From a virus (Duplodnaviria > Heunggongvirae > Uroviricota > Caudoviricetes), in IMG/VR virus record IMGVR_UViG_2859827302_000005, positions 1 to 40,732 of that record: DNA of 40,732 nt; one strand, written 5' to 3'. Under the pieces are notes generated by a model, which was given only the letters and a program-made list of their open reading frames with translations, was not told where the DNA came from and searched no databases. How positions within the stretch are numbered: position 1 is the first letter of the stretch; every line of letters starts with the position of its first letter. The position numbers and the translations under genes are program-made. Of this stretch, positions 1,919 to 40,090 are shown piece by piece.

Positions 1919-4893
1919 TATGCAAGCCTCACAATATAGTTAAATGCGATGTTTTTGACGGTGTTTTCCGCGTTACCAGCAGCGTTAACGGTGATGGTGT
2001 GTCCATGTGAACCAATCGCAACGGAGTGCGTATGCGCACCAATACCTACAGTATGTGCATGTGCGCCAGAACTTGCTGCAGTACCAGACAGCGAGTGGGT
2101 ATGAGCACCTGCTGACTGTGTCTGAATACGTTGATAATACGATCTACGGGAAGAAGTCCCCGGGCTTACTTGATACTGTGAATCCTGGACATAAGTGAAC
2201 CCACCGCCATCATAAAATGCTAACGCAGAACCGCCGCCTCCTGGCCAACGAATACCATTACCATGAGTATGATCACCGGCAGACCCCGTAGAGCCACTCA
2301 GACTGTGCGTATGCGCCCCGGTGTTATTCGTGGATTTGGTTCCGTAATCAAACGACGATGTGTTTTTCGTCCCCAAATCCGTACTGGATGCGCTGGCGCT
2401 GTGGGTGTGCGATTTAATGCCGTCCTGTTCCTGAGACAATACGGCACGACCACTGGCGGGTTTGCCCTTAATCGTCCAGCCACGCATATCAGGGATCACG
2501 CCTGACGGATAAGCGGCTGCAAGTTTCGGGTATGCAGATTTGTCAAAAGTCTGCCCCTGCATCAGGGCATAGCCAGACGGAACGGTATCTGATGGCCACG
2601 GGATTGGTGCGCCAGGCGGATAAAACTGCTCTGATGGCGTATAGAGTGCATAAACTGTACCGTCCGTTAACCCTTCCGGCTTATTAGCAGAATATGCTGG
2701 TGACGTATGAATCGTCACGCTGGCATTACTGGTATAATCCCATTGAATATTTACACCAGTCGCATAATTTCCGATTGCAACGTAAATATCGTAAGTATCA
2801 CCAGATGTATTGACCCAGGCAAAATTTGTAAACCCTGTCGATGTGCGCTGCCATAAAGCACCAGTAATCCCCTTCGGATTACCATTACCTGCACGCAAAA
2901 CAAGTTCAGATATACCTGCCTGTTGAGGTGACCCCACGTTAAATCCCGCACCACCAATCAACGTAATTGAAACAACAGAACTCGCCTGTGGCATGGTTAC
3001 CGTTGCTAATTTGAACCAACCAGCACCACCGCTGAATGACATTGTTGTTGAGTTAAGCGTACCAATATCTTTCGGCGTCAGTGTTATATCCGCTGAAAGC
3101 GCCTTACCATTCACCTTACGGGCAGAAGGTACCCGACCATTCGCATTATCATTAGCTGCTTTCACTGCTTTCGGTGTCGCGGCAAGCGTTTCAGATGCGC
3201 TGTTGGTTGCACTACTGAGCTGGACAATTCCTTTTTGTGCTGTCGTAGCGTCCTGAGCAGTATATTTCCCGTTAGCAAGGTCATAGGCTGCCTTTACCGA
3301 CTTTGGCGTTGCCGCCAGCATTTCAGATGTGCTGTTGGTCGCGTTGCTAAGCTGAACTATCCCTTTCTGTGCTGTCGTTGCATCCTGTGCGGTGTATTTC
3401 CCGTTAGCCAGCTCATACGCGGCCTTAACGGCTTTTGGCGTTGCCGCCAGTGACTCGGAAGTGCTGTTAGTCGCACTGCTGAGCTGTACTATCCCCTTTT
3501 TCGTCGTGCTCGCATCCTCAAGCGCCACGGCGGATGCAATATCCTCTGCCCGTTTTGCCGCTGTCTCAGCGCGCGTTGCCGCGGATTCCGCCGTACTTTT
3601 GCTCTGAGCTGCCGCCGTCGCACTGCCAGCTGCCTCTGTCGCCTTCGTGGATGCCGTCGTGGCGCTGCCCTTTGCTGCTGACGCCTGTCTGGTCGCCTCA
3701 TCTTTTGAAGCAGACGCAGATGATGCCGATGACGCCGCCGAACTGGCGGACGATGCGGCAGCCGTTTTTGAGGATTCTGCGCTGGTTTCCGACGCTTTCG
3801 CGTTCGTCTCGGATGTCTTCGCTGCGGAAGCAGACCTCGCTGCTGCGCTGGCCAGTACAGCGGCTTCGCCAGCCTTCGTTGTGGCTGTTGAAGCAGACGA
3901 TGCAGCACTTTCTGCAGATTTTCCGGCGGCGGTGGCACTGGCTGAGGCCTGCCCGGCACTTGTTGACGCGGCACTGGCAGATAATGCAGCCGCTGTTTTT
4001 GAGTCTGCCGCAGCTGAGGCGCTCTGTCCCGCTGCCGTTTCAGAAGACCTGGCGTTCGTCTCGGACGTTTTTGCCGCCTTCGCAGAATTTGCTGCCGCCG
4101 TTGCCGAGGAAGCTGCGCTGCTGGCGCTCGAGGCTGCGTTCGTTTCTGATGATTTTGCCGCCTCTTTTGAAGCCGACGCATCCCGTGCTGAAGTGGCTGC
4201 TTCTGACGCTTTCGTGGTCGCGGTGGATGCAGAAGTGGCTGCTGATTGTTGTGACGCTGCCGCATTCGTTTCTGACGTTTTCGCGGCACTGGCACTGGTA
4301 GCTGCCGCGCTTTTTGAGGACTCTGCAGCAGCAGCACTTTTCGATGCTTCACTGGCCTTTGTTGATGCCGCTCCTGCGCTGGAAGACGCTGACTGAGCCG
4401 ACGACGCGGCCTGTCCGGCTGACGTGCTGGCTGCGCGTGCTGAGCCTGCAGCATCAGTCGCATGGGTTGCCGCCTCACGGGCTGATGTGCGGGCATCGCT
4501 GGCTGACTTCTTCGCGGCTGCCGTGTTCTGTGCCACTGCGGACGCGTTACGCGCCACCTCTTCCACCATCAGTTCAAAACGGCGCAGTGCCTCTGGCCGG
4601 ACATCATCCTCCGTCATTGCACCGAGGAAATCATTCAGTGTGCCCGGCTTTGAGTCCTCATATACGGTGATAATCCCGGCGTGTGACGGCGGGAATCCCT
4701 CCACCAACAGACTGACGCTGTACTGACCATACTCGACGTCCATTGTATAACGCCCGGCTTCATCCGGATTTTCTGAGGCCACTGTGTTCACCACCACCGT
4801 GGTGCTGTTGCGCCTGGCCTTTAGCTGAATGGTGCAGTTTTGTATCGGCTTACCTGCACCATCTTTCAGTACACCTGAAATCAGTACTGCCAT
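1918..4893 (-). CDS. stf: side tail fiber protein Stf (StfR-like, 991 aa)
   Basis: Lambda Stf N-terminus ([32 protein letters not shown]). Long Ala/Ser/Thr-rich low-complexity shaft, three tandem 44-aa repeats, and a C-terminal tip with HTHSLSG/HxH repeats. Confidence 0.9.
3100..3500. repeat. three tandem ~132-bp repeats inside stf
   Basis: DNA repeat starts at about 3225, 3358 and 3489, encoding three copies of [44 protein letters not shown]. Confidence 0.5.
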
Positions 4894-4902
4894 ATTCCCC
4901 CC

Positions 4903-4931
4903 ACAAAAAAGCCCGCCTGAACCGGCGGGCT
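4903..4931 (-). terminator. intrinsic terminator downstream of lom
   Basis: Stem agcccgcc/ggcgggct with a 6-7 nt loop, followed on the minus strand by TTTTTTGT. Confidence 0.6.
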
Positions 4932-4957
4932 GTCATAACACTGTGTTACCTGGCTAA

Positions 4958-5557
4958 TCAGAATTTATAGCCGACACCAACGATGAAACTGTTGGTACGC
5001 CAGTCACCACTGCCGGAGCCTTCATAAGCAATATCAATGGCCACGGATTCGGTCGGGTTAAACTGCACGCCAGCCCCCCACGCCAGAGACGTGTTGCTGT
5101 GGCGACCGTCATCACTTCCGGTCAGCACATCGTGCGTTTTCCCCTTGTTGTCAGTTACACGGAGATAATCCCCGGAAAAAGTCGACACACGACTGTAAGT
5201 CACACCCGCCATCGCATACGCGCTGAACCATTCATTCACGCGCACAGACGGCCCCGCCATCACGCTGAACCAGCGGTTACGCACGGAATCTTCATGCCAG
5301 CGGGTATCGCTGTAATGCGTTTTTTGCTCATCTTTGGCATTGGCATAACTGAATGACGTCACCAGCCCCAGCGTGTCCGTAAACTCATAACGGTATTTCA
5401 CGTTAATCCCGTTCAGATCATCGCTGCCTGGCATATCAGTATGGGTCTGAAGATACCCGGCGCTTAGTGTGGACTGATGCTCTGCTGCGCTCGCTGGCAT
5501 ACCAGCGGCAACCAGCCAGACTACTGCGGACAGAATAACAGCACATAATTTACGCAT
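4958..5557 (-). CDS. lom: outer membrane protein Lom (Ail/Lom family)
   Basis: 199 aa with signal peptide and beta-barrel pattern ending ...FIVGVGYKF. Canonical position after J. Confidence 0.9.
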   Translation of the reverse strand: MRKLCAVILSAVVWLVAAGMPASAAEHQSTLSAGYLQTHTDMPGSDDLNGINVKYRYEFTDTLGLVTSFSYANAKDEQKTHYSDTRWHEDSVRNRWFSVMAGPSVRVNEWFSAYAMAGVTYSRVSTFSGDYLRVTDNKGKTHDVLTGSDDGRHSNTSLAWGAGVQFNPTESVAIDIAYEGSGSGDWRTNSFIVGVGYKF

Positions 5558-5624
5558 AATTACCTCTCGCTTTTCTGCAATAAAAAAGGCACCATTTCTG
5601 GTGCCCGTATCTGGGTTATAAAAT

Positions 5625-8600
5625 TCAGCTAATCGTGATGCCTGTAGTGGCTTTCTTCATCACCACAACCAGCAAATCGCTGATACTTGCTGTGGGATAC
5701 CAGTTATTTACCAGCCATGCTGACACCGAAAACTCCAGTGTCATGTGACCGTGACCGGCAGGCATATCAATAACGCCACTGTAAATCAGCGTATTATCCA
5801 GCGCGGTACGGTTATAAATTTCAGCACCGTTTTTCCGCACTATCAGACGGCATGAGGAGTAAATATCAGTATGCTCTCTCTCATGCTTAGCGCCACTGAA
5901 TGCCACCGCCGGAATAACAATTTGCCGGTCAAACGGCTGATCGTCATAAACCCTGACGGTAATGGTCCCTGATGGCCACCGCTCCGGTGCACGGGAGTCC
6001 CGGGGGAAAGCTTTGCCCACTGTTTTAACGAGATCGCCTTCAATCTGGTTGGCGGACAGTTTTCCCAGAACCCGACAGTTCTCGTTAATCGTGACGTTGT
6101 TGAGCGTCCCGGAGTTCGCATTCACGTTACCGCTAATATCGGCATTTTTCGCCGTCAGCCGCCCGTCCGGTGTCAGGGAAAATGCCGGAGGATTACCGCC
6201 GCTGGTAATGGTGGGAGCCGTCAGGCGTTTCAGGAACACGTCGTTCATGAATATCTGATCGCCCTGACCAACAAACATCGGCTTTGTGTTGCCATTCGCA
6301 GGATTAATCATCGCAATCCTGTCTGCCGCCAGCAGCACCTGACTCTGCATTCCTGCTGGCGTATTCTCAATACCGGCACCGATACCCGCAATATAAAGGC
6401 GTCCGTCCTTCATCTGTTGCAGCTTCACAGCCCACATGCTGTTCAGATTATTATTTGTATCAACCTGAACCTTCTGTATCTGCTGGATTGCCGCACTCTG
6501 GTCTTTCAGTTTCTTATTGACAGTCTGCGTGATTTCATTGCTGACATCCGTAATGGACGTCCTGATTTCAGCCAGGTCAGGCGCAAGCTGACCTTTATCA
6601 ATCTGCGTCCACAGCTCCTGAGCCAGATGGGTTTTCCCTATCTCGCCTTTGAAAAAATCCAGATAACCGGATGCATCATCACTCGGCTGACCAACAGCCT
6701 CCACGAATGCCGATTTGCCAACGGTGTTCACACTGCGAACGTAAAAATAATAATCATGGCCCGGTTTGATATTGATACTGGCGGCTATCCAGTACAGCCC
6801 CGTGCCAAGATAGCGCGCTGTGGTTTCAACCTTCCTGATATCGGTAATCCGCTTTTCCGAAAACCAGAACTCAAACTGTACCGTCGGGTCATAAACGGCA
6901 AGATGCGGCGTGGCGGTTATCTGAAAATAGCCCGACGTCAGCTCAATCCGCGACGGCGCTGCCGGTGCGGCAATCCGGAACGATACCGACGCCGGATCGC
7001 CCTGCTGTCCCCACGCATTTACCGCCCGGACCGTCAACATGTAACGCCCCAGCGCCAGCTGCCTGAAGCGGTATGTGGTTTCCGTCGTCCGGGCCGTGCT
7101 GACCAGCCGCTCACTGCCATCGTCCGCTGTCACGGTCAGGCGAAGCAGGAAGCTCACGCCCTTCACCACCTTCGGCGTGTCCCAGCGGGCCAGTACCTGA
7201 TACTCCCCGCTGTCTGCGGTGACTTCGGCAGTCAGGTGCTGCACCGCTGGCGGCGTGACACCATTCACCGTGCCGCTCTGGTCGCCGTCAAAGTGCGCCC
7301 CGTTATCCACGATGGCTTCTTTTTCCGGTACATGCTGCACGGCGGTGATGGCATACGTGCCGTCATCGTTCTCACGGATACTCACGCAGCGGAACAGGCG
7401 CTGGCGCAGCGTCGGCAGCTTCAGCCCCCACACGCTGTATTCGGCAACGCCGTCAGGAACACGGCTCACTTTCACCTTCACGCCGTCGGTGACGGACTGG
7501 ACCTCCACGCTGACCGGATTCCCCTGTCCGTCAACCAGGCTTATCAGCGTGGTGCCGGAGGATGGCAGCGTGATTTCACGGTCGAGCGTCAGTGTCCGCG
7601 TCTGGCTGTTCACCGCCAGCACGCGCCCGCCGATGCTGATACCCGCATAGTCATCATCACAGATTTCAATGACATCGCCCGGTACATGGCGAAGCCCTTC
7701 TGCACCCACGCTGAAGTCCACGGTCTGCGTTTCCAGCAGCTCCGTTTTAATCAGCCACAGCCCGGCGCGGTGTGCCTGCCCCCGGCTGGTACAGCCAAAG
7801 GCATCCATCTTCGTGACGTTACGACCGTAACGGGCAATGGCCTGCGTATCTTCAACAAGCTCTGTCGCCGTCTCCCAGCCGTTATCCGGGTCAATCCAGT
7901 TCACCTCAACGGCATTATGGCGGTCCTTCAGGGCGCTGAAGCTGTAGCGGAACGGCGCGCCATCATCCGGCATCACCACATTACTGCGGTTATAGGTCCA
8001 CACCTTATCCGACGGTCGGTCCTGCACGAACGTCAGCGTCTGCCCGTTCCATACCGGCATACAGCGCATCGCCGAACAGAAATCACTGAGCACATCCCAC
8101 GCCTTACGCTGTGTGGTCAGGTAAGCGTTACAGGTGATGCGCGGCTCCGTGCCACCAAAGCCATCCGGCACTGACTGATCGCAATACTGGCCGATGACAT
8201 ACAGCGCCCATTTGTCCACATCCGCCGCACCAAGACGTTTCCCCATGCCGTAGCGCGGGTGGGTCAGCATATCCCACAGACACCATGCCATGTTGTTGCT
8301 GTATGCCGGTTTAAACGTCCCGTCCCAGATACCGCTGTATTGCCGCGTCTGCGGGTTATAGTTCGATGGCACCTGCAGAATGCGCCCGCGAAGATGATAA
8401 TTACGGCTCACCTGCTGGCTGCCGAACTGTTCCGAGTCCACCTGCACGCCGACCAGTGCCGTGTTCGGGTAGCACTGTTTCACATCGATGATTTCAGTGT
8501 ATGACGACCAGAGCGTTTTGTTCTGCAGCTGGTCTGTGGTGCTGTCCGGCGTCATCCTGCGCATCCGGATATTAAACGGGCGCGGCGGCAGGTTACCCAC

Positions 8601-9104
8601 CACCACCGAGGCCAGATACTGCGAGGTGGTTTTGCCCTTAATGGTGATGTCTTTTTCCGTCACCCAGCCACCGTTACGTTGTATCTGAACCAGCAGGCGG
8701 ACTTCCGACGGATTCCTGTCACCCTTTGAGGTGGTTTCCACCAGTGCCTGCACACCGAAGGTAAAGCGCAGACGGTCGATGTTTGCAGACGTGATGGTCC
8801 GGGTGATCGGCGTGTCGTATTTCACTTCCGTACCCAGCACCGTCTCGGAACCGGAGGATTCAAATCCCTCCGGCGGTGTCTGCTCCTGCTCACCTGCCCG
8901 GAACACCACCGTAACACCGGAGATGTTGGTATTCCCCTCACTGTCCAGCACCGGTGTACTGTTCAGCAGCACGCTTTTTAATCCATCCACCGGACCTTCA
9001 ATCGGCCCTTCGCTGATGGCATCGATCACACTCAGTAATTGCGTGGATTTCAGGTTGTCCTTCGCTTCGCGCGGGGTATGCCCCTTACTGCTTCCTTTAC
9101 CCAT
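5625..9104 (-). CDS. J: tail tip / host specificity protein J
   Basis: 1159 aa; N-terminal about 800 aa near-identical to lambda J as I recall it. The C-terminal receptor-binding region (ends ...[14 protein letters not shown]) differs from my recollection of lambda J, so the receptor may differ. Confidence 0.9.
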
Positions 9105-9114
9105 TCCTCACACT

Positions 9115-9146
9115 CCATAAACAACAAAGCCGCCCAAAAGGCGGCT
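9115..9146 (-). terminator. putative intrinsic terminator between lipoprotein moron and J
   Basis: Stem agccgcc/ggcggct with a short loop, followed on the minus strand by TTGTTGTTTATGG. Confidence 0.45.
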
Positions 9147-9170
9147 CATGAGTTACGGCAGGATTAACTA

Positions 9171-9509
9171 TTATTTACATGCATTAACACTATCAGCAAA
9201 AATTTTTGGCGTTAATGCTGGTACACGTTCATAAAGAGTAAAACTACTGCCATTTCCTGCTTTTTTGATATCAAGCACAATATCATATCCCCCCATAGCC
9301 TGTGGAACTAAAAGGCTTACCCCATTCTCAATAGGAAGGGATGTTATAGGTGTTCCATTACCAGCCCATTGTCTGGATATGCAGCCTGACAATTCATCAA
9401 TATTTTTTAATGAATTACCTTCCATTACAGGTTTTCCGGATTTTACGTAATCCAAAGATTTACATCCTGTTAAGGCAATAATCGTGCAGAATAAAATCGT
9501 TTTGTTCAT
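9171..9509 (-). CDS. putative lipoprotein (moron between I and J)
   Basis: 112 aa from the ATG at 9509; the ORF-track start at 9521 is a TTG. Signal peptide with lipobox LTGC (MNKTILFCTIIALTGC). AT-rich; lambda has no gene at this position. Confidence 0.6.
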   Translation of the reverse strand: MNKTILFCTIIALTGCKSLDYVKSGKPVMEGNSLKNIDELSGCISRQWAGNGTPITSLPIENGVSLLVPQAMGGYDIVLDIKKAGNGSSFTLYERVPALTPKIFADSVNACK

Positions 9510-9581
9510 ATAGCTAACCAATAGAATAATTATCAGTGTTCGATATAAATATTAAATCAGTTAGAACATGAGTAAATAATA

Positions 9582-10230
9582 TTACCGCCCAATTACCACA
9601 ACCTGACCACCATCCCCTTCATCTGCCGTGCTGATCTCCTGAGATGCCACACGTGACCCCACGCGCATTTCACCGTACAGAACAGGCAGGACATTGCCCT
9701 GGGCAACCATGTTATCCAGTGAGGAGAAATAGGTGTTCTGTTTGCTGTTTGCCGTTATCCGTTGTCTGTGTACGTGGAGTTTTGGGTTTAGGGGCCAGCA
9801 TCTGTGCGACACCACCAAGCGTCATCGCTGCCCCCATAGAAAAGAGAATGTTACTGAAAGCGATACTGATTCCTGGCATCCAGATTGCCGTAGCAATCAG
9901 CGCCGCACCCAGCACTGCCTGAAAAACACCACCACTTTTGGCACCCGCCAGACGCGGTACGATGTGGATCACGGCACCATTTGCCAGCGGCTCATTAAGA
10001 CGGGCAGATAATTCGTTTTCGCCTGCATCACGCCCGGCAATGCGCACCTGATACCAGCCCTCATTCAGTTTCTGGCGAAACGCCGGGAGCTGTGTGGCCA
10101 GCGCCCGGATGGCTTCGGCCCCCGTTTTCACACGAAGGTCGATGCGGCGACCAAATCGTTGTAAATCCCCGTAAAGGCAGATGCGTGCCATGCCTGGTGA
10201 CGCCAGAGGGAGTGTGTGCGTCGCTGCCAT
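9582..10230 (-). pseudogene. I: tail assembly protein I, frameshifted by a 7-bp tandem duplication
   Basis: N-terminal 172 aa match lambda I and then stop prematurely. The lambda-like C-terminus (NTYFSSLDNMVAQGNVLPVLYGEMRVGSRV...VVVIGR) continues in another frame to 9582. Plus-strand TGTTTGC occurs twice in tandem at 9739..9752. Confidence 0.8.
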
Positions 10231-27507: not shown

Positions 27508-27618
27508 ACCCCGTCTCCCGTTATCCGGAAGCTGACAACAATAAAAAAAGCCACCAGTTAAGTACTGATGGCTCTGATAACTCATGCAGGCCTCTCAGAC
27601 GACCCACTGGATTTGCCC

Positions 27619-28524
27619 CTATATTTCCAGACATCTGTTATCACTTAACCCATTACAAGCCCGCTGCCGCAGATATTCCCGTGGCGAGCGATAACCCAGC
27701 GCACTATGCGGATGCCATTCGTTATAATGCTCGAACGCCTCTGCAAGGTTCTTTGCTGCCGTTAACCCGTCTGGTTTGGGCATGATACTGATGTAGTCAC
27801 GCTTTATCGTTTGCACGAAGCTCTCTGCTATTCCGTTACTCTCCGGACTCCGCACCGCCGTGTTCTTCGGTTCAAGTCCCAACATCCGGGCGAACTGGCG
27901 TGTTTCATTAGCCCGGTAGCATGAACCATTATCCGTCAGCCACTCCACTGGAGACGACGGAAGATCGTTGCCGAAGCGGCGTTCCACCGCTCCCAGCATG
28001 ACGTCCTGTACTGTTTCACTGTTGAAGCCGCCGGTAGTCACCGCCCAGTGCAGTGCCTCACGATCACAGCAGTCCAGCGCGAACGTGACACGCAGTCTCT
28101 CTCCGTTATCACAGCAGAACTCGAACCCGTCAGAGCACCATCGCTGATTGCTTTCTTTCACGGCCACTCTGCCTGTATGTGCCCGTTTCGATGGTGGTAC
28201 AGCAGGTTTTCGCTCAAGCAACAGCGCATTCTGGCGCATGATCCGGTAAACACGTTTGGCATTGATCGCAGGCATACCATCAAGTTCTGCCTGTCTGCGA
28301 AGCAGCGCCCATACCCGACGATAACCATACGTGGGCAGCTCTCCGATAACATGGTGTATACGGAGAAGCACATCCGTATCATCAGTGTGACGACTGCGGC
28401 GGCCATCCATCCAGTCATCGGTTCGTCTGAGAATGACGTGCAACTGCGCACGCGACACCCGGAGACAACGGCTGACTAAGCTTACTCCCCATCCCCGGGC
28501 AATAAGGGCGCGTGCGCTATCCAC
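27619..28524 (-). CDS. insD: IS2 transposase OrfB (InsD)
   Basis: 301-aa ORF with DDE integrase-like sequence; in IS2 it is expressed as a frameshift fusion with InsC. Confidence 0.9.
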
Positions 28525-28847
28525 TTTTTTGCCCGTCCATATTCAACGGCTTCTTTGAGGAGTTCATTTTCCATCGTTTTCTTGCCGAGCAGGCGCTGGA
28601 GTTCTTTAATCTGCTTCATGGCGGCAGCAAGTTCAGAGGCAGGAACAACCTGTTCTCCGGCGGCCACAGCAGTAAGACTTCCTTCCTGGTATTGCTTACG
28701 CCAGAGAAATAACTGGCTGGCTGCTACACCATGTTGCCGGGCAACGAGGGAGACCGTCATCCCCGGTTCAAAGCTCTGCTGAACAATTGCGATCTTTTCC
28801 TGTGTGGTACGCCGTCTGCGTTTCTCCGGCCCTAAGACATCAATCAT
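28482..28847 (-). CDS. insC: IS2 OrfA (InsC)
   Basis: 121 aa, [41 protein letters not shown]…, helix-turn-helix. Confidence 0.9.
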
Positions 28848-28993
28848 CTGTACTCCAATGACTAGTCTAAAAACTAGTATTAAGACTATCACTTATTTAA
28901 GTGATACTGGTTGTCTGGAGATTCAGGGGGCCAGTCTACCCACTGACACTACCGGTGAGTTTAACGATACCTTCCATTTGACTGGCTCACTTT

Positions 28994-30850
28994 TTATGAT
29001 GATGCCGGTGCATTTATCTCCAGCACCAGACTTTCTATCTCAACGCCATACGCTGCATTTTTGGTAATATCCGTCAGCGTCAGCGCATTCAGCCCCAGTG
29101 TCAGACTGTCTTTTATGACCTGGAATGCCGGGCCAGCCACTCCATTCAGTTTCGGAGTAACCGTGGCACTGCCGGCGGTGAACACCAGCTCCAGCGTCTG
29201 CCAGTCGTTACTGTAATTCCCGAACTCGCCCAACTTTGTGTTTCCGGCTTTCTTGTGATGCATCAGATTCAGTTTGCCGTCTGTGGTCTGGGTGAAGAAC
29301 GACATCAGGAACGGGTTACCAGTCCCGGTCATCGCCACGACGTCAGGTAACGCTACATCGGTATACAGATAAATTCCCAGACCGAACTGGTTGTTGGTCA
29401 GTGCGCCTGACAGTCGAAACTTACAGCTCAGTCTGCCACCCCGTGTCAGCAGGGAGACTGCGTCATCCACCGGATGCATCAGGGACCAGGTTTTATTGCT
29501 CTGCTTGGTAACCTTAAACACACCATCTTCCAGCGCAACACTGCCGCCGGTGATGGTCCAGCCCTGCGCAGCAGCCTCTCCGGCTGTCGGCAGCAGGGAG
29601 ACTGTACGAACGGATGTGTCACCATCAGACGGCCCCGATGGCGTGTCGCCGCCGGGCGAGGGTTTAATCTCCGGTGCGGTACCGCTGATGAAGGCGCTGG
29701 TTCGACCAACTGCGTTCAGAATAGCGGTTGCCAGGCGATCCGAAATAATGCCCCTGCGCGCCCATGAACTGAAATGTGTCGGACGATTTGACGATACCCA
29801 ATTACCATTACTACGGGATTGCGCGCCGTAATAACCTGCATCAGCAATATCCGGGTCTTCTGCCGGTAAGTTGGTGGGCGTGTTGTTGCCGTTACCGTCG
29901 GTCATGAACGGCACAAAGAAAACGTTGTCGCTCTCCCTGTTTTTGTACGCGCCGTAGACGGAGTCATACTGTGTGCCGTATGTGTTTTTCCAGTAATACG
30001 TCGTGTCGCCACAAATCCACGGTACAACTGCAGCACTGCCGCCATGGCACTGCGCGTTAAATCCGGAAAGGTCAGTACGGAACTGCTTCAGCATGGCCGT
30101 GAACAGGTCCGGTTGCTGTGCGTAGGTGGCAGCGCTCATGTCAAATTCGCCCTGCATCCAGCACACCGCCAGCAACACATTTTTCGGGTTCTTCTGTAAT
30201 GCCGCTTTGGTGCGTGCGATCAGGTCCTGATATAACGGTTTACCCACACCCCAGCGTGCCGAATCCTGGCTGGCCCCCGTGTCCGCACTGAATGTCCCCT
30301 CCGCGCCCTGGGTGAATGCCGAACCACCACGACAGCATGGTACCAGCAGGATCCCCGCGTTATTCGGGATATACGGAAGCAGTTTTTTGGCAATATGTAA
30401 GCCCTGGCCGACACAGCCGTACTGCCCTTTGCTCAGGTCTGCCTTCGGATGATTCAGTGCGCTCATATCCTGAACATCATGCAGGCAGTGGTCTGCCGGA
30501 ATGATGTCGTTAAATGCGCATGCTTTACCACCGGGAGTCACTGTGTTGCGACGGGCCAGTTGCTTAATACGTGGGTGGGGCGCATCGTAAGAATCCGGAA
30601 GCGGAAGCCCTTCACCGTAAGCCATGGCATTGGATTGCCCGGCCAGTACGATGACGTAGTACCACTCCGGCTCAGTTGCACCACTGACGACCACATCACC
30701 TTCTGCTGCAATCGCCTGCATCAGGGTATAAGGGGTTATGGCCACCGGACTACCAAACGGCTGCCAGCCCTCTTTCAGTTTATGTGTCAGCTTTTCCGCA
30801 AGATCTGACGGCGACGCCGCCCTGACAACATCATAGTGTTTAAATGCCAT
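28994..30850 (-). CDS. nanS: prophage sialate O-acetylesterase, NanS-p-like (SGNH hydrolase plus C-terminal domain)
   Basis: 618 aa from the ATG at 30850 (alternative ATG at 30865; the ORF-track start is a TTG inside IS1). SGNH motif VIVLAGQSNAMAYGE. Sits between the tRNA/stx slot and the holin, as nanS-p does in Stx phages. Confidence 0.7.
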   Translation of the reverse strand: MAFKHYDVVRAASPSDLAEKLTHKLKEGWQPFGSPVAITPYTLMQAIAAEGDVVVSGATEPEWYYVIVLAGQSNAMAYGEGLPLPDSYDAPHPRIKQLARRNTVTPGGKACAFNDIIPADHCLHDVQDMSALNHPKADLSKGQYGCVGQGLHIAKKLLPYIPNNAGILLVPCCRGGSAFTQGAEGTFSADTGASQDSARWGVGKPLYQDLIARTKAALQKNPKNVLLAVCWMQGEFDMSAATYAQQPDLFTAMLKQFRTDLSGFNAQCHGGSAAVVPWICGDTTYYWKNTYGTQYDSVYGAYKNRESDNVFFVPFMTDGNGNNTPTNLPAEDPDIADAGYYGAQSRSNGNWVSSNRPTHFSSWARRGIISDRLATAILNAVGRTSAFISGTAPEIKPSPGGDTPSGPSDGDTSVRTVSLLPTAGEAAAQGWTITGGSVALEDGVFKVTKQSNKTWSLMHPVDDAVSLLTRGGRLSCKFRLSGALTNNQFGLGIYLYTDVALPDVVAMTGTGNPFLMSFFTQTTDGKLNLMHHKKAGNTKLGEFGNYSNDWQTLELVFTAGSATVTPKLNGVAGPAFQVIKDSLTLGLNALTLTDITKNAAYGVEIESLVLEINAPASS

Positions 30851-30930
30851 GGTTCTTTCCACCATCTGAAAAATGGGTGATGCTGCCAACTTACTGATTT
30901 AGTGTATGATGGTGTTTTTGAGGTGCTCCA

Positions 30931-33370: not shown

Positions 33371-34429
33371 TCATCCGTTCTGGCTGACTAAATCCTGTAC
33401 TTCCCGAACCGTCTGCTCAAAACGTCCGGTCTCCAGCTCAACGCCAATCGCACGACGCCCGAGCGCCAGTGCCGCTTTTACCGTTGAACCTGAGTCCATA
33501 AAAAAATCTGCAACCAGGTCACCCGGACGACTGCTTGCGCTGATTATCTGCTGCAGCATTTCTGCCGGTTTTTCGCACGGATGTTTCCCGGGATAGAACT
33601 GCACCGGTTTATGTGTCCACACATCCGTGTACGGCACCTGCGCCGTCACACCAAAATACCGCCGCAGATGCTTATATTCACTCTGCAGCTCCACATACTG
33701 CCGGTTCAGTGACGTATACGTATCCACCAGCTGGTAGTGGGGCTTTTCCAGTTCACCGCGCTGATGTTTCTCTTCTGCCACCCGGGCAAACAGCGACTGT
33801 AATTTCAGATAATCGCTTTCGTTCGGTAGCTGCCACTGACTGGCACTGAACCAGTGCGACACCATGTTTTTCTTTCCTGTGGCATCTGCAATCTGTTTTG
33901 CCGTTATCCCCAGGGCCGCGCGCGCATCACGAAAGTAAGAAATCAGCGGGGCCATCACATGCTGTTTCAGTGCACTGCCCTTCGCCGCATACCCGGCATC
34001 TTTCGGACGATACGGCCCCTGATAATGTTCCGCGAACAGAATGCGCTCTGTGGCGGGGAAATACGCCCGCAGGCTTTCCTTGTTGCATCCGTTCCAGCGT
34101 CCGGACGGCTTCGCCCAGATAATATGGTTCAGCACACTGAAGCGTTCACGCATCATGATTTCGATATCAGATGCCAGGCGATGACCACAGAACAGGTAAA
34201 GACTTCCGGCAGGTTTCAGCACCCGCCAGAACTGCGCCAGACACTGGTCCAGCCACTTCAGGTAATCATCGTCGCCCTTCCACTGGTTATCCCAGCCCTC
34301 AGGCTTCACTTTAAAGTACGGCGGGTCCGTGACTATCAGGTCAACAGAATTTTCGGGTAACGACCGGATAAATTCCAGGCAGTCGGCGTTGATTAACTCA
34401 CAACTGGATATTTTTACAGTATTAGCCAT
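33371..34429 (-). CDS. orphan DNA N6-adenine (or N4-cytosine) methyltransferase, beta class
   Basis: 352 aa with an N-terminal DPPY motif (LIVTDPPYF) and a C-terminal SAM motif (DLVADFFMDSGST). No adjacent restriction endonuclease gene. Confidence 0.85.
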   Translation of the reverse strand: MANTVKISSCELINADCLEFIRSLPENSVDLIVTDPPYFKVKPEGWDNQWKGDDDYLKWLDQCLAQFWRVLKPAGSLYLFCGHRLASDIEIMMRERFSVLNHIIWAKPSGRWNGCNKESLRAYFPATERILFAEHYQGPYRPKDAGYAAKGSALKQHVMAPLISYFRDARAALGITAKQIADATGKKNMVSHWFSASQWQLPNESDYLKLQSLFARVAEEKHQRGELEKPHYQLVDTYTSLNRQYVELQSEYKHLRRYFGVTAQVPYTDVWTHKPVQFYPGKHPCEKPAEMLQQIISASSRPGDLVADFFMDSGSTVKAALALGRRAIGVELETGRFEQTVREVQDLVSQNG

Positions 34430-38754: not shown

Positions 38755-38765
38755 TGGATTTGCCC

Positions 38766-39671
38766 CTATATTTCCAGACATCTGTTATCACTTAACCCAT
38801 TACAAGCCCGCTGCCGCAGATATTCCCGTGGCGAGCGATAACCCAGCGCACTATGCGGATGCCATTCGTTATAATGCTCGAACGCCTCTGCAAGGTTCTT
38901 TGCTGCCGTTAACCCGTCTGGTTTGGGCATGATACTGATGTAGTCACGCTTTATCGTTTTCACGAAGCTCTCTGCTATTCCGTTACTCTCCGGACTCCGC
39001 ACCGCCGTGTTCTTCGGTTCAAGTCCCAACATCCGGGCGAACTGGCGTGTTTCATTAGCCCGGTAGCATGAACCATTATCCGTCAGCCACTCCACTGGAG
39101 ACGACGGAAGATCGTTGCCGAAGCGGCGTTCCACCGCTCCCAGCATGACGTCCTGTACTGTTTCACTGTTGAAGCCGCCGGTAGTCACCGCCCAGTGCAG
39201 TGCCTCACGATCACAGCAGTCCAGCGCGAACGTGACACGCAGTCTCTCTCCGTTATCACAGCAGAACTCGAACCCGTCAGAGCACCATCGCTGATTGCTT
39301 TCTTTCACGGCCACTCTGCCTGTATGTGCCCGTTTCGATGGCGGTACAGCAGGCTTTCGCTCAAGCAACAGCGCATTCTGGCGCATGATCCGGTAAACAC
39401 GTTTGGCATTGATCGCAGGCATACCATCAAGTTCTGCCTGTCTGCGAAGCAGCGCCCATACCCGACGATAACCATACGTGGGCAGCTCTCCGATAACATG
39501 GTGTATACGGAGAAGCACATCCGTATCATCAGTGTGACGACTGCGGCGGCCATCCATCCAGTCATCGGTTCGTCTGAGAATGACGTGCAACTGCGCACGC
39601 GACACCCGGAGACAACGGCTGACTAAGCTTACTCCCCATCCCCGGGCAATAAGGGCGCGTGCGCTATCCAC
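38766..39671 (-). CDS. insD: IS2 transposase OrfB (InsD)
   Basis: 301 aa; one amino-acid difference from copy 1 (K vs Q). Confidence 0.9.
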
Positions 39672-39994
39672 TTTTTTGCCCGTCCATATTCAACGGCTTC
39701 TTTGAGGAGTTCATTTTCCATCGTTTTCTTGCCGAGCAGGCGCTGGAGTTCTTTAATCTGCTTCATGGCGGCAGCAAGTTCAGAGGCAGGAACAACCTGT
39801 TCTCCGGCGGCCACAGCAGTAAGACTTCCTTCCTGGTATTGCTTACGCCAGAGAAATAACTGGCTGGCTGCTACACCATGTTGCCGGGCAACGAGGGAGA
39901 CCGTCATCCCCGGTTCAAAGCTCTGCTGAACAATTGCGATCTTTTCCTGTGTGGTACGCCGTCTGCGTTTCTCCGGCCCTAAGACATCAATCAT
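39629..39994 (-). CDS. insC: IS2 OrfA (InsC)
   Basis: 121 aa, identical to copy 1. Confidence 0.9.
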
Positions 39995-40090
39995 CTGTAC
40001 TCCAATGACTAGTCTAAAAACTAGTATTAAGACTATCACTTATTTAAGTGATACTGGTTGTCTGGAGATTCAGGGGGCCAGTCTAATCTT

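What the first reader, a model, noticed from the sequence alone, without database searches (positions are those of the whole stretch)
9115..9580. Lipoprotein moron inserted between tail genes I and J, with its own terminator
In lambda, I is followed directly by J. Here an AT-rich 112-aa lipoprotein gene (lipobox LTGC) sits between them, followed by an intrinsic terminator hairpin just upstream of the J ribosome-binding site. Phage-encoded lipoproteins next to host-range genes are classically superinfection-exclusion factors that inactivate the phage's own receptor (Cor of phi80/N15, Llp of T5). This J has a C-terminal receptor-binding region that differs from my recollection of lambda J, so the lipoprotein may target whatever receptor this J uses.
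Basis: partly seen in the sequence, partly recalled or inferred. Interest (0 to 1): 0.6.

Follow-up and report, generated by a model that had tools for sequence, protein, structure and literature searches.

The report
Uncharacterised lipoprotein cargo gene in tail operon
A small, real and conserved outer-membrane lipoprotein gene of unknown function sits between tail genes I and J of an E. coli lambda-like prophage; it is unrelated to the known phage-exclusion lipoproteins, is not tied to the receptor-binding end of J, and in other phages almost always lies next to tail gene I.

Summary
On the minus strand, 9171-9509 encodes a 112-aa lipoprotein precursor (lipobox LTGC). It is 36% GC against about 57% in the flanks. 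It lies between tail genes I and J and is followed by a stable hairpin with a T-run before the J start.

It is a real gene: 112 homologous clusters, pN/pS 0.11, AlphaFold pLDDT 90.6. It belongs to PHROG 914 (function unknown) and is annotated "hypothetical" in 338 of 5,426 E. coli genomes.

- **The hairpin is not exclusive to the insert.** Lambda and VT1-Sakai have a matching hairpin at the I-J junction without this gene.
- **The receptor-matching idea is not supported.** The same lipoprotein (98-100% identical) sits with at least three J receptor-binding types. This J type occurs about 28 times more often than the gene.

There is no homology to Cor, Llp, Lpp010 or Bor. In other phages, relatives lie in the tail operon in 16 of the 19 contexts I could classify, and next to gene I in 13 of those 16.

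Best reading, unproven: an envelope-acting exclusion factor, possibly aimed at entry steps rather than the receptor.

Moderate interest; new variant of a known kind.

The parts
9171..9509 (-). Lipoprotein precursor gene, 112 aa, PHROG 914 family. The mature protein starts at Cys16. Residue +2 is Lys, so Lol sorting to the outer membrane is expected.
   Evidence: ORF and translation. PHROG 914 at E = 2.5e-32. No match in Pfam, NCBIfam or PADLOC. 112 homolog clusters. C16, C43 and C111 are invariant; W48 is in at least 90% of sequences. pLDDT 90.6. pN/pS 0.11.
9462..9509 (-). Signal peptide (codons 1-15) plus the lipidated Cys codon (9462-9464); lipobox L-T-G-C.
   Evidence: Read from the sequence. 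The lipobox Cys is invariant in 57 homologs. LspA processing itself was not tested.
9510..9581 (-). 72-nt AT-rich spacer between the I stop and the lipoprotein ATG. It holds only weak sigma-70-like hexamers: TTTAAT-16-GATAAT, with the -10 ending at 9529.
   Evidence: The standard scan found no minus-strand promoter at 9 of 12 matches or better. A relaxed scan gives 8 of 12. An own promoter is therefore not shown.
9117..9147 (-). GC-rich hairpin (9147-9127) and U-rich tail (9126-9117), 23 nt after the lipoprotein stop and just before the J ribosome-binding site.
   Evidence: -21.6 kcal/mol, z = -4.2. It aligns with a hairpin at the lambda I-J junction, and VT1-Sakai has a different one at the same place. 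Relatives of the lipoprotein are followed by such a terminator in 13 of 16 loci.
9582..10230 (-). Tail gene I, the upstream neighbour. Here it is a pseudogene, split by a 7-bp tandem duplication at 9732-9753.
   Evidence: Two ORFs, 9712-10230 and 9582-9818. The duplication is in the window only; 40 related loci carry the unduplicated sequence.
5625..9104 (-). Tail tip / host-specificity gene J, the downstream neighbour, 1159 aa. Its C-terminal receptor-binding region is of the VT1-Sakai/PPompW type, not the lambda type.

Best explanation
The region is a cargo (moron-type) cassette: one low-GC gene for a small outer-membrane lipoprotein, placed between the stop codon of tail gene I and the terminator-type hairpin in front of J.

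**Shown.**
- The gene is real, conserved and under purifying selection.
- It belongs to an uncharacterised family of about 112-aa lipoproteins with a lipobox Cys and two further invariant cysteines, probably a disulfide.
- It is predicted with high confidence to fold as a compact alpha/beta domain.
- Family members sit, co-oriented, in the tail operons of lambda-like siphophages, mostly directly beside gene I, and usually with a terminator after them.

**Inferred.**
- The precursor is exported by Sec, lipidated, cleaved by signal peptidase II and sorted by Lol to the periplasmic face of the outer membrane (+2 Lys). It therefore cannot be a virion part.
- During lytic growth it is transcribed with the antiterminated late operon.
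- In the lysogen, any transcript starting in the AT-rich 72-nt spacer would stop at the hairpin.
- Its most likely job is to act at the cell envelope as an entry or superinfection-exclusion factor against lambda-like siphophages.
- Because it is uncoupled from the J receptor-binding domain, it probably does not mask the J receptor. It more likely interferes with a later, common step such as outer-membrane penetration by the tail-tip proteins.
For: - **Gene reality and family:**
- **Foreign composition in every phage locus but not in the chromosomal copy:**
- **Absence from lambda and VT1-Sakai at the same junction:**
- **Tail-operon placement in independent, divergent members (27-58% identity).**
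  - T|x|H: L067-72. This is the slot of the HK97 gp15 exclusion moron (PMC3594210).
  - M|x|L: L006.
  - K|x|I or x|I: Fraca, LMessi, mEpX2, HK140, L007, L074, L075, L077-79, L087-93, L096.
  - I|x|J: this window and about 60 IMG/VR loci.
- **Locations typical of genes that benefit the carrier cell:** beside a cI-like repressor and on a Rep3/ParA plasmid.
- **Precedents.** HK97 gp15 is a tail-operon moron that blocks DNA entry without blocking receptors, depends on the incoming tail, and has chromosomal relatives (PMC3594210). Lipoproteins encoded in the structural module of mEpimmI phages exclude phages (PMC11893012).
- **Uncoupling from the J receptor-binding domain:**
- **Coexistence with cor:**
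Against: - No experiment or expression data exist for any family member. Literature searches found nothing on it.
- There is no match in the PADLOC defence models.
- The own promoter is weak or absent. In K|x|I phages the gene follows K by 29-40 nt or overlaps it. That implies late-lytic rather than lysogenic expression, which is an awkward time for exclusion.
- A non-phage chromosomal lineage exists in Shimwellia.
- In E. coli-type prophages the gene is not preserved better per base than I or J.
Confidence: 0.4

Rival explanations
1. Receptor-masking exclusion lipoprotein in the manner of Cor or Llp, matched to the receptor used by this J. The lipoprotein would bind the periplasmic side of the outer-membrane receptor and make it unusable.
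For: - It is an outer-membrane-type lipoprotein encoded next to J.
- Lipoproteins in structural modules that exclude phages using a given receptor are documented: Lpp010 with LamB phages and Lpp021 with OmpA phages (PMC11893012), and Llp with FhuA (PDB 8a60).
Against: - There is no sequence or fold relation to Cor, Llp or Lpp010.
- The gene lies at the 5' end of J, about 3 kb from the receptor-binding domain.
- The same allele occurs with at least three receptor-binding classes.
- This J type is about 28 times more frequent than the gene and occurs without it in VT1-Sakai and PPompW.
- Relatives lie beside I, M/L or H rather than beside receptor-binding genes.
- mEpX2 and Fraca have cor as well.
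Confidence: 0.12
2. Lysogenic-conversion or fitness lipoprotein with no role against phages, like lambda Bor (serum resistance) or Lom (adhesion). It would simply ride in a permissive slot of the tail operon.
For: - Low GC, one gene plus a terminator, and presence/absence polymorphism are the classic moron signature.
- lom lies just downstream of J in the same window.
- There are chromosomal and plasmid-borne relatives.
- The host strains are mostly human and animal isolates.
Against: - There is no Pfam Bor match.
- The family shows a strong preference for tail operons of lambda-like tails, and for the slot beside I: 13 of 16 tail contexts. This holds across Escherichia, Klebsiella and Pseudomonas phages and metagenomes. 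A host-niche factor would not be expected to show that.
- In most phages there is no room for an own promoter.
Confidence: 0.2
3. A late-lytic helper for the phage's own burst. It would be made with the tail proteins and alter the outer membrane of the dying cell, so that released progeny do not waste themselves on debris or vesicles. This is the second role proposed for T5 Llp. It might instead modulate lysis.
For: - The gene is co-oriented and tightly packed within late tail operons. The gap from K to the gene is 29-40 nt, and in L096 the two overlap.
- No convincing own promoter was found.
Against: - Members also sit beside a repressor, on a plasmid and on a chromosome, where late-lytic timing makes no sense.
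- The gene stays intact in prophages whose I, K or J are broken.
- It is not in a lysis cassette and is unlike the Rz1-type spanins.
Confidence: 0.13
4. A decaying or functionless hitch-hiker ORF.
For: - It is annotated only as hypothetical.
- It has a weak ribosome-binding site and a weak promoter.
- Some copies are frameshifted: P0002, P0009, L063-65.
Against: - pN/pS is 0.11 and 56 of 60 copies are intact.
- Three cysteines are invariant, and Trp48 is in at least 90% of sequences, across 57 sequences that are 16-61% identical to the window protein, apart from one 97%-identical near-duplicate.
- The predicted fold is confident.
Confidence: 0.03

Closest known systems
HK97 gp15 moron (superinfection-exclusion protein; Cumby et al. 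2012, summarised in PMC3594210)
   Same: - One extra, compositionally odd gene inside the tail operon of a lambda-like siphophage.
- It encodes an envelope protein.
- Relatives exist on bacterial chromosomes.
- Some members of the present family (L067-72) occupy the very same slot, between the G/T chaperone genes and the tape-measure gene.
   Different: gp15 is a small inner-membrane protein of the YebO family, not a lipoprotein. Its exclusion activity and prophage expression are demonstrated, whereas nothing has been tested here. No sequence comparison was run.
Cor (phi80 / N15 / HK022 / T1-like phages), the FhuA-inactivating exclusion lipoprotein
   Same: A small phage-encoded lipoprotein with a lipobox, located in the tail region of siphophages.
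   Different: - hhalign aligns only the signal peptide and a few following residues, 30 columns.
- Cor lies downstream of J and the tail-fibre genes, whereas this gene lies upstream of J or beside I.
- mEpX2 and Fraca carry both genes.
T5 Llp (lytic conversion lipoprotein; PDB 8a60)
   Same: An outer-membrane lipoprotein encoded by a siphophage, next to a host-range gene.
   Different: - Only the signal peptide matches (E = 1.1).
- Llp is an early gene paired with the receptor-binding protein. This gene is uncoupled from the receptor-binding domain.
Lpp010 / Lpp021 of mEpimmI coliphages (PMC11893012)
   Same: Lipoproteins encoded within the structural gene cluster. They are experimentally shown to exclude phages, and Lpp010 also excludes lambda.
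   Different: - They are unrelated in sequence beyond the signal peptide.
- Lpp010 is 82 aa, lies downstream of J and is on the opposite strand.
Flpp3 / DUF3568 lipoproteins and the BamC N-terminal domain (structural neighbours)
   Different: Sequence identity is 6-12% and there is no Pfam match. The similarity is at the level of a common fold and carries no functional inference.

Membership tests
Bacterial lipoprotein (signal peptidase II substrate) | A positively charged n-region, an uncharged h-region, a lipobox [LVI][ASTVI][GAS]C, and the Cys within residues 15-35 | tested here: met
   MNKTILFCTIIALTGC: K3, residues 6-11 uncharged, L-T-G-C at 13-16. The Cys is invariant in 57 homologs.
Bacterial lipoprotein (signal peptidase II substrate) | Actual lipidation and LspA cleavage, and outer-membrane sorting | not testable with these tools
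   Only inferred, from the lipobox and the +2 Lys rule.
Moron (Juhala/Hendrix definition, as given in PMC3594210) | Extra DNA relative to related phages, with deviant base composition | tested here: met
   About 430 bp is absent from lambda and VT1-Sakai at the same junction. GC is 36% against 57%.
Moron (Juhala/Hendrix definition, as given in PMC3594210) | Own terminator | tested here: inconclusive
   A strong hairpin with a U-tract follows the gene, and relatives have one in 13 of 16 loci. However, an aligned hairpin exists at the lambda I-J junction without the gene.
Moron (Juhala/Hendrix definition, as given in PMC3594210) | Own promoter and expression from the repressed prophage | tested here: inconclusive
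   Only 8-of-12 hexamer matches were found in the 72-nt spacer. Expression is not testable here.
PHROG 914 | Full-length match to the family profile | tested here: met
   E = 2.5e-32, residues 1-112 against profile positions 1-118. The family has no known function.
Cor | Sequence homology to Cor in the mature part | tested here: not met
   hhalign of the family profile against Fraca Cor aligns only 30 columns, the signal peptide plus a few residues.
Cor | Inactivates FhuA and excludes FhuA-dependent phages | not testable with these tools
   This needs infection assays.
T5 Llp | Sequence or fold similarity to Llp (PDB 8a60) | tested here: not met
mEpimmI Lpp010 | Sequence homology | tested here: not met
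   BLASTP and hhalign align only the signal peptide.
Lambda Bor (Pfam Lambda_Bor) | Pfam family match | tested here: not met
   No Pfam family matches at E <= 1.
Receptor-matched exclusion gene (functional class of Cor and Llp) | Co-inheritance with one receptor-binding domain type | tested here: not met
   At least three J C-terminal classes occur with one lipoprotein allele. The J type is at 9,883 places against 350 for the gene.
Known anti-phage defence proteins (PADLOC) | Match to any PADLOC model | tested here: not met
   0 families.
HK97 gp15 / YebO | Sequence homology | not tested
   No gp15 sequence was at hand. The protein types differ: an inner-membrane helix protein against a lipoprotein.

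The most novel reading that the evidence does not exclude
The lipoprotein is the cognate partner of tail protein I, and the two genes form a mobile entry/exclusion pair.

gpI is the trimeric plug of the lambda tail tip. Its two hydrophobic helices are proposed to insert into the outer membrane when the tail opens (PMC11101478, PMC12617516). A lipoprotein tethered to the periplasmic face of that membrane would meet the incoming gpI, or the gpH C-terminus, and jam channel formation. This would work whichever receptor J uses.

Evidence in favour:
- Family members are directly adjacent to an I gene in 13 of 16 tail-operon contexts.
- Pseudomonas phage phiAH14a carries a second lipoprotein + I pair outside its tail cluster, downstream of the repressor.
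- Its P4-like satellite AH14b, which has no other tail genes, also carries I + lipoprotein, although the lipoprotein is of another type (PMC4936722).

Shared descent of the K|x|I arrangement and simple physical linkage could explain much of this.
Probability: 0.15. Interest if true: 0.75.

Novelty: new variant of a known kind. Interest (0 to 1): 0.45.

Why it matters
Phage-encoded envelope proteins that stop further infection shape which phages can spread in E. coli populations, and they affect phage therapy. The known lipoprotein examples (Cor, Llp, Lpp010) all act through the receptor.

This family is uncharacterised, is present in about 6% of complete E. coli genomes, and occurs in phages of Klebsiella, Pseudomonas and uncultured hosts. 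It is decoupled from the receptor-binding domain and sits preferentially beside gene I.

If it blocks outer-membrane penetration by the tail-tip plug protein, it would give a genetic handle on a step of lambda infection that recent cryo-EM work describes but leaves mechanistically open. If it turns out to be a plain fitness factor, the finding is an ordinary moron.

Tried and rejected
- **Family libraries.** Pfam, NCBIfam and PADLOC gave nothing. NCBIfam offered only a VirB7 signal-peptide hit at E = 0.08.
- **Cultured phages.** Megablast against the phage collection found no match. tblastn with four family members found only eight named phages, none characterised for this gene.
- **Pattern scans.** Alignment-based scans failed with the diverse alignments. 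The scan with P0030 in viral contigs found nothing.
- **Literature.** No paper mentions WP_001332187. Two further searches found no study of a lipoprotein in the K/I/J slots, apart from the phiAH14a genome paper.
- **"The hairpin came with the insert" was rejected as stated.** Lambda has the hairpin too. The opposite claim, that the hairpin has nothing to do with the gene, was also rejected. Relatives carry a terminator in nearly every slot.
- **Preferential retention in decaying prophages was considered and dropped.** The gene is not better preserved per base than I or J.
- **Immunity protein against the NlpC/P60 domain of K was considered.** It was left aside because K has no shown periplasmic role, and its location is unknown (PMC12617516).
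- **The 1047-aa repetitive protein P0039**, which hit the profile, looks spurious.
- **The I-allele test was uninformative.** Close physical linkage explains the result.

Full report
**1. What is there**

The feature lies on the minus strand. ORF 9171..9509 encodes 112 aa, MNKTILFCTIIALTGCKSLDYVKSGKPVMEGN...SVNACK. The N-terminus has the form of a lipoprotein signal: K3, an uncharged stretch, then the lipobox L-T-G-C with Cys16. Residue +2 is Lys. By the established +2 rule for E. coli, that predicts Lol sorting to the outer membrane. This is an inference.

The CDS is 36% GC against 56-57% in the 3 kb on either side, and a 200-nt window drops to 29%. Upstream, tail gene I ends at 9582-9584. 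Downstream, J starts at 9104.

A hairpin lies 23 nt after the lipoprotein stop, at 9147-9127 (9 pairs, 6 of them G-C), followed by UUUGUUGUUUAU. It folds at -21.6 kcal/mol, z = -4.2, and none of 200 shuffles is as stable.

In lambda, I and J are 60 nt apart. Alignment shows that homology to lambda stops at the I stop codon and resumes at about 9148. About 430 bp therefore replaces about 20 bp.

**2. It is a real gene**

- It matches PHROG 914 (function unknown) over its full length at E = 2.5e-32.
- Pfam, NCBIfam and PADLOC give nothing.
- An exhaustive profile search finds 112 clusters of proteins at E <= 0.001, mostly about 105-125 aa. The members I aligned are lipoproteins.
- In a 57-sequence alignment, the lipobox Cys and two further cysteines (C43, C111) are invariant. 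P27, W48 and G63 are present in at least 90% of sequences. The two extra cysteines lie in the two long helices of the model, so a periplasmic disulfide is likely. This is an inference.
- AlphaFold2 with that alignment gives pLDDT 90.6 and pTM 0.81. The domain runs strand, helix, four strands, helix.
- Among 60 E. coli-type copies, 56 are intact. Thirteen nucleotide alleles give pN/pS = 0.11.
- The gene occurs at 350 places in 338 of 5,426 complete E. coli genomes. PGAP calls it a hypothetical protein, WP_001332187.1.

**3. The terminator**

- Lambda, which lacks the gene, has an aligned hairpin at the same place: AAACCGCC-UGCG-GGCGGUUU, then UUGUCAUUUAUGGAG and the J ribosome-binding site. VT1-Sakai has a different strong hairpin there.
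- Relatives of the lipoprotein are followed by a canonical GC-stem and T-run terminator in 13 of 16 loci, whatever slot they occupy. That includes a copy beside a prophage repressor.

Gene plus terminator is thus the usual unit. Either the I|J hairpin pre-existed and the gene landed in front of it, or lambda keeps the scar of a lost cargo. I cannot tell which. The I|J slot clearly takes alternative cargo: nothing in lambda, a 39-aa ORF in VT1-Sakai, and the lipoprotein here.

An own promoter is not shown. The standard scan finds none on the minus strand. A relaxed scan finds only 8-of-12 matches in the 72-nt spacer.

**4. Not Cor, Llp, Lpp010 or Bor**

- A profile search of all PDB sequences hits T5 Llp (8a60) only through the signal peptide, at E = 1.1.
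- hhalign against Fraca Cor and mEp010 Lpp010 aligns only the signal peptide region.
- There is no Pfam Bor match.

**5. The receptor-matching idea fails the tests I could run**

- The J C-terminus here does differ from lambda J: 83% identical overall and 44% over the last 170 aa. It is 98.4% identical to J of VT1-Sakai and the PPompW prophages.
- Those phages lack the lipoprotein.
- Across IMG/VR loci, lipoproteins 98-100% identical sit with at least three J C-terminal classes that are 44-64% identical to each other.
- In complete E. coli genomes, this J C-terminal type occurs at 9,883 places in 3,780 genomes. The lipoprotein occurs at 350 places in 338 genomes.
- mEpX2 and Fraca carry a family member and also a separate cor gene downstream of J.

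**6. Where the relatives live**

I sampled independent, divergent members (27-58% identity) through encoding contigs, IMG/VR and GenBank phages.

| Context | Loci |
|---|---|
| Between G/T and the tape-measure gene H | L067-72 |
| Between M and L | L006 |
| Between K and I, or directly upstream of I | Fraca, LMessi, mEpX2 gp19, HK140, L007, L074, L075, L077-79, L087-93, L096 |
| One gene upstream of I | L066 |
| Between I and J | the E. coli type |
| Next to a cI-like repressor | L097/98 |
| On a Rep3/ParA plasmid | L094 |
| On the Shimwellia chromosome, between yidB and eco | L080-82, L102 |

Three further contigs were too short to classify.

In every tail-operon locus listed above, the gene is co-oriented with the tail genes. 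In the phage loci measured, its GC is lower than that of the flanks, typically by 5-21 points. The exceptions are L075, L077 and L079, where one flank is about equal. The chromosomal copy is not lower.

The gene is directly adjacent to an I gene in 13 of 16 tail-operon contexts. In the K|x|I phages the gap after K is 29-40 nt, or the genes overlap. There the gene must be co-transcribed with the late operon.

**7. A possible link to gene I**

Pseudomonas phage phiAH14a has a full M-L-K-(lipoprotein gp83)-I-J cluster. It also has a second pair outside that cluster, downstream of the repressor and on its strand.

- gp33 is annotated as 93 aa. Read from L100:4962 it is a full 115-aa family member (hhalign probability 99.6%, E = 5e-25).
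- gp32, next to it, is an I paralog 79% identical to the tail-cluster I.
- gp83 is a different 140-aa lipoprotein, with no detectable homology beyond the N-terminus.

The published description of this phage notes the duplicated I genes. It also reports that the P4-like satellite AH14b, which has no other tail genes, encodes an I homolog followed by a homolog of the 140-aa lipoprotein (PMC4936722).

Recent structures show gpI as the trimeric plug of the lambda tail tip. Its two predicted transmembrane helices are proposed to insert into the outer membrane on opening (PMC11101478, PMC12617516).

A lipoprotein on the periplasmic face of that membrane, encoded beside I, could plausibly interfere with this step in an incoming phage. 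This is inference only. Shared ancestry of the K|x|I arrangement and plain physical linkage are sufficient alternative explanations. My attempt to test allele linkage in E. coli was uninformative for that reason.

**8. Most likely function**

The closest precedent in kind is HK97 gp15. It is a moron inside the tail operon, in a slot that some members of this family also use. It blocks DNA entry without touching receptors, depends on the incoming tail, and has chromosomal relatives (PMC3594210). Lipoproteins encoded in structural modules that exclude phages are also documented (PMC11893012).

On this basis I favour an envelope-acting exclusion factor that is not receptor-matched, at confidence about 0.4. 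The sub-hypothesis that it targets gpI stands at about 0.15.

Weighing against it:
- There is no expression or phenotype data for any member.
- There is no convincing promoter.
- Timing is implied to be late-lytic in most phages.
- The fold is uninformative.

The rivals are Cor-like receptor masking (0.12), a Bor/Lom-type fitness factor (0.2), a late-lytic helper that protects progeny or tunes lysis (0.13), and junk (0.03).

**9. Novelty and verdict**

The kind of element is well known: a lipoprotein moron in a siphophage tail region. This family is uncharacterised and unrelated to the known exclusion lipoproteins. Its association is with gene I and the tail operon at large, not with the receptor-binding gene. 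I therefore rate it a new variant of a known kind, of moderate interest (0.45). The I + lipoprotein pairing is the part worth an experiment.

**10. Other observations**

- Gene I in this window is broken by a private 7-bp tandem duplication at 9732-9753.
- Other copies of the prophage also have broken I, K or J with the lipoprotein intact. Per base, however, the lipoprotein is not better preserved than its neighbours.
- The window also holds two identical IS3-family copies 11,147 bp apart.

Noticed in passing
window 9732-9753 (gene I, 9582-10230, minus strand): A 7-bp tandem duplication (CAAACAG) frameshifts tail gene I. It is private to this window: none of the fetched loci has it, and 40 carry the unduplicated sequence. 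The prophage is therefore probably tail-defective.
   Followed up: yes
window ~27608-28900 and ~38755-40050: Two identical copies of an IS3-family element (HTH_Tnp_1 ORF plus rve ORF), 11,147 bp apart in direct orientation. They bracket the lysis/Q-side region of the prophage.
   Followed up: partly
L085 (VT1-Sakai) 2041-2280; L076 (lambda) 2446-2505: The I|J junction is a variable cargo slot with a constant hairpin in front of J. Lambda has the hairpin only. VT1-Sakai has a 39-aa ORF (2086-2205) plus a different hairpin. The window has the lipoprotein plus a hairpin.
   Followed up: partly
L100 (phiAH14a) 4962-5948; L101 18239-19310: phiAH14a gp33 is annotated with a truncated start; the full ORF is a 115-aa lipoprotein of this family. 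It is paired with an extra gpI paralog (79% identical to the tail-cluster I), downstream of the repressor. According to PMC4936722, the satellite AH14b also encodes I plus a lipoprotein.
   Followed up: partly
L096 3473-4966: One called product carries both a Lambda_tail_I domain (residues 8-88) and the FNIII-A domain of J (271-398). This is either an I-J fusion or a missed stop.
   Followed up: no
L077-L079, about 2400-6950: A block of about 4.7 kb holding Arc, Bro-N and KilA-N/ANT-type genes sits between K and the lipoprotein gene, inside a tail operon. The K-I interval is therefore a hot spot for inserted cargo.
   Followed up: no
L032 1350-2700: This is a copy of the same prophage type in which K and I are multiply frameshifted while the adjacent lipoprotein gene is intact.
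   Followed up: partly
window 28994-30889 and 33371-34429: A NanS-p-like sialate O-acetylesterase gene (DUF1737 + SASA + DUF6645) and an N6/N4 DNA methylase gene lie in the same prophage. Both are ordinary lambdoid accessory genes.
   Followed up: no
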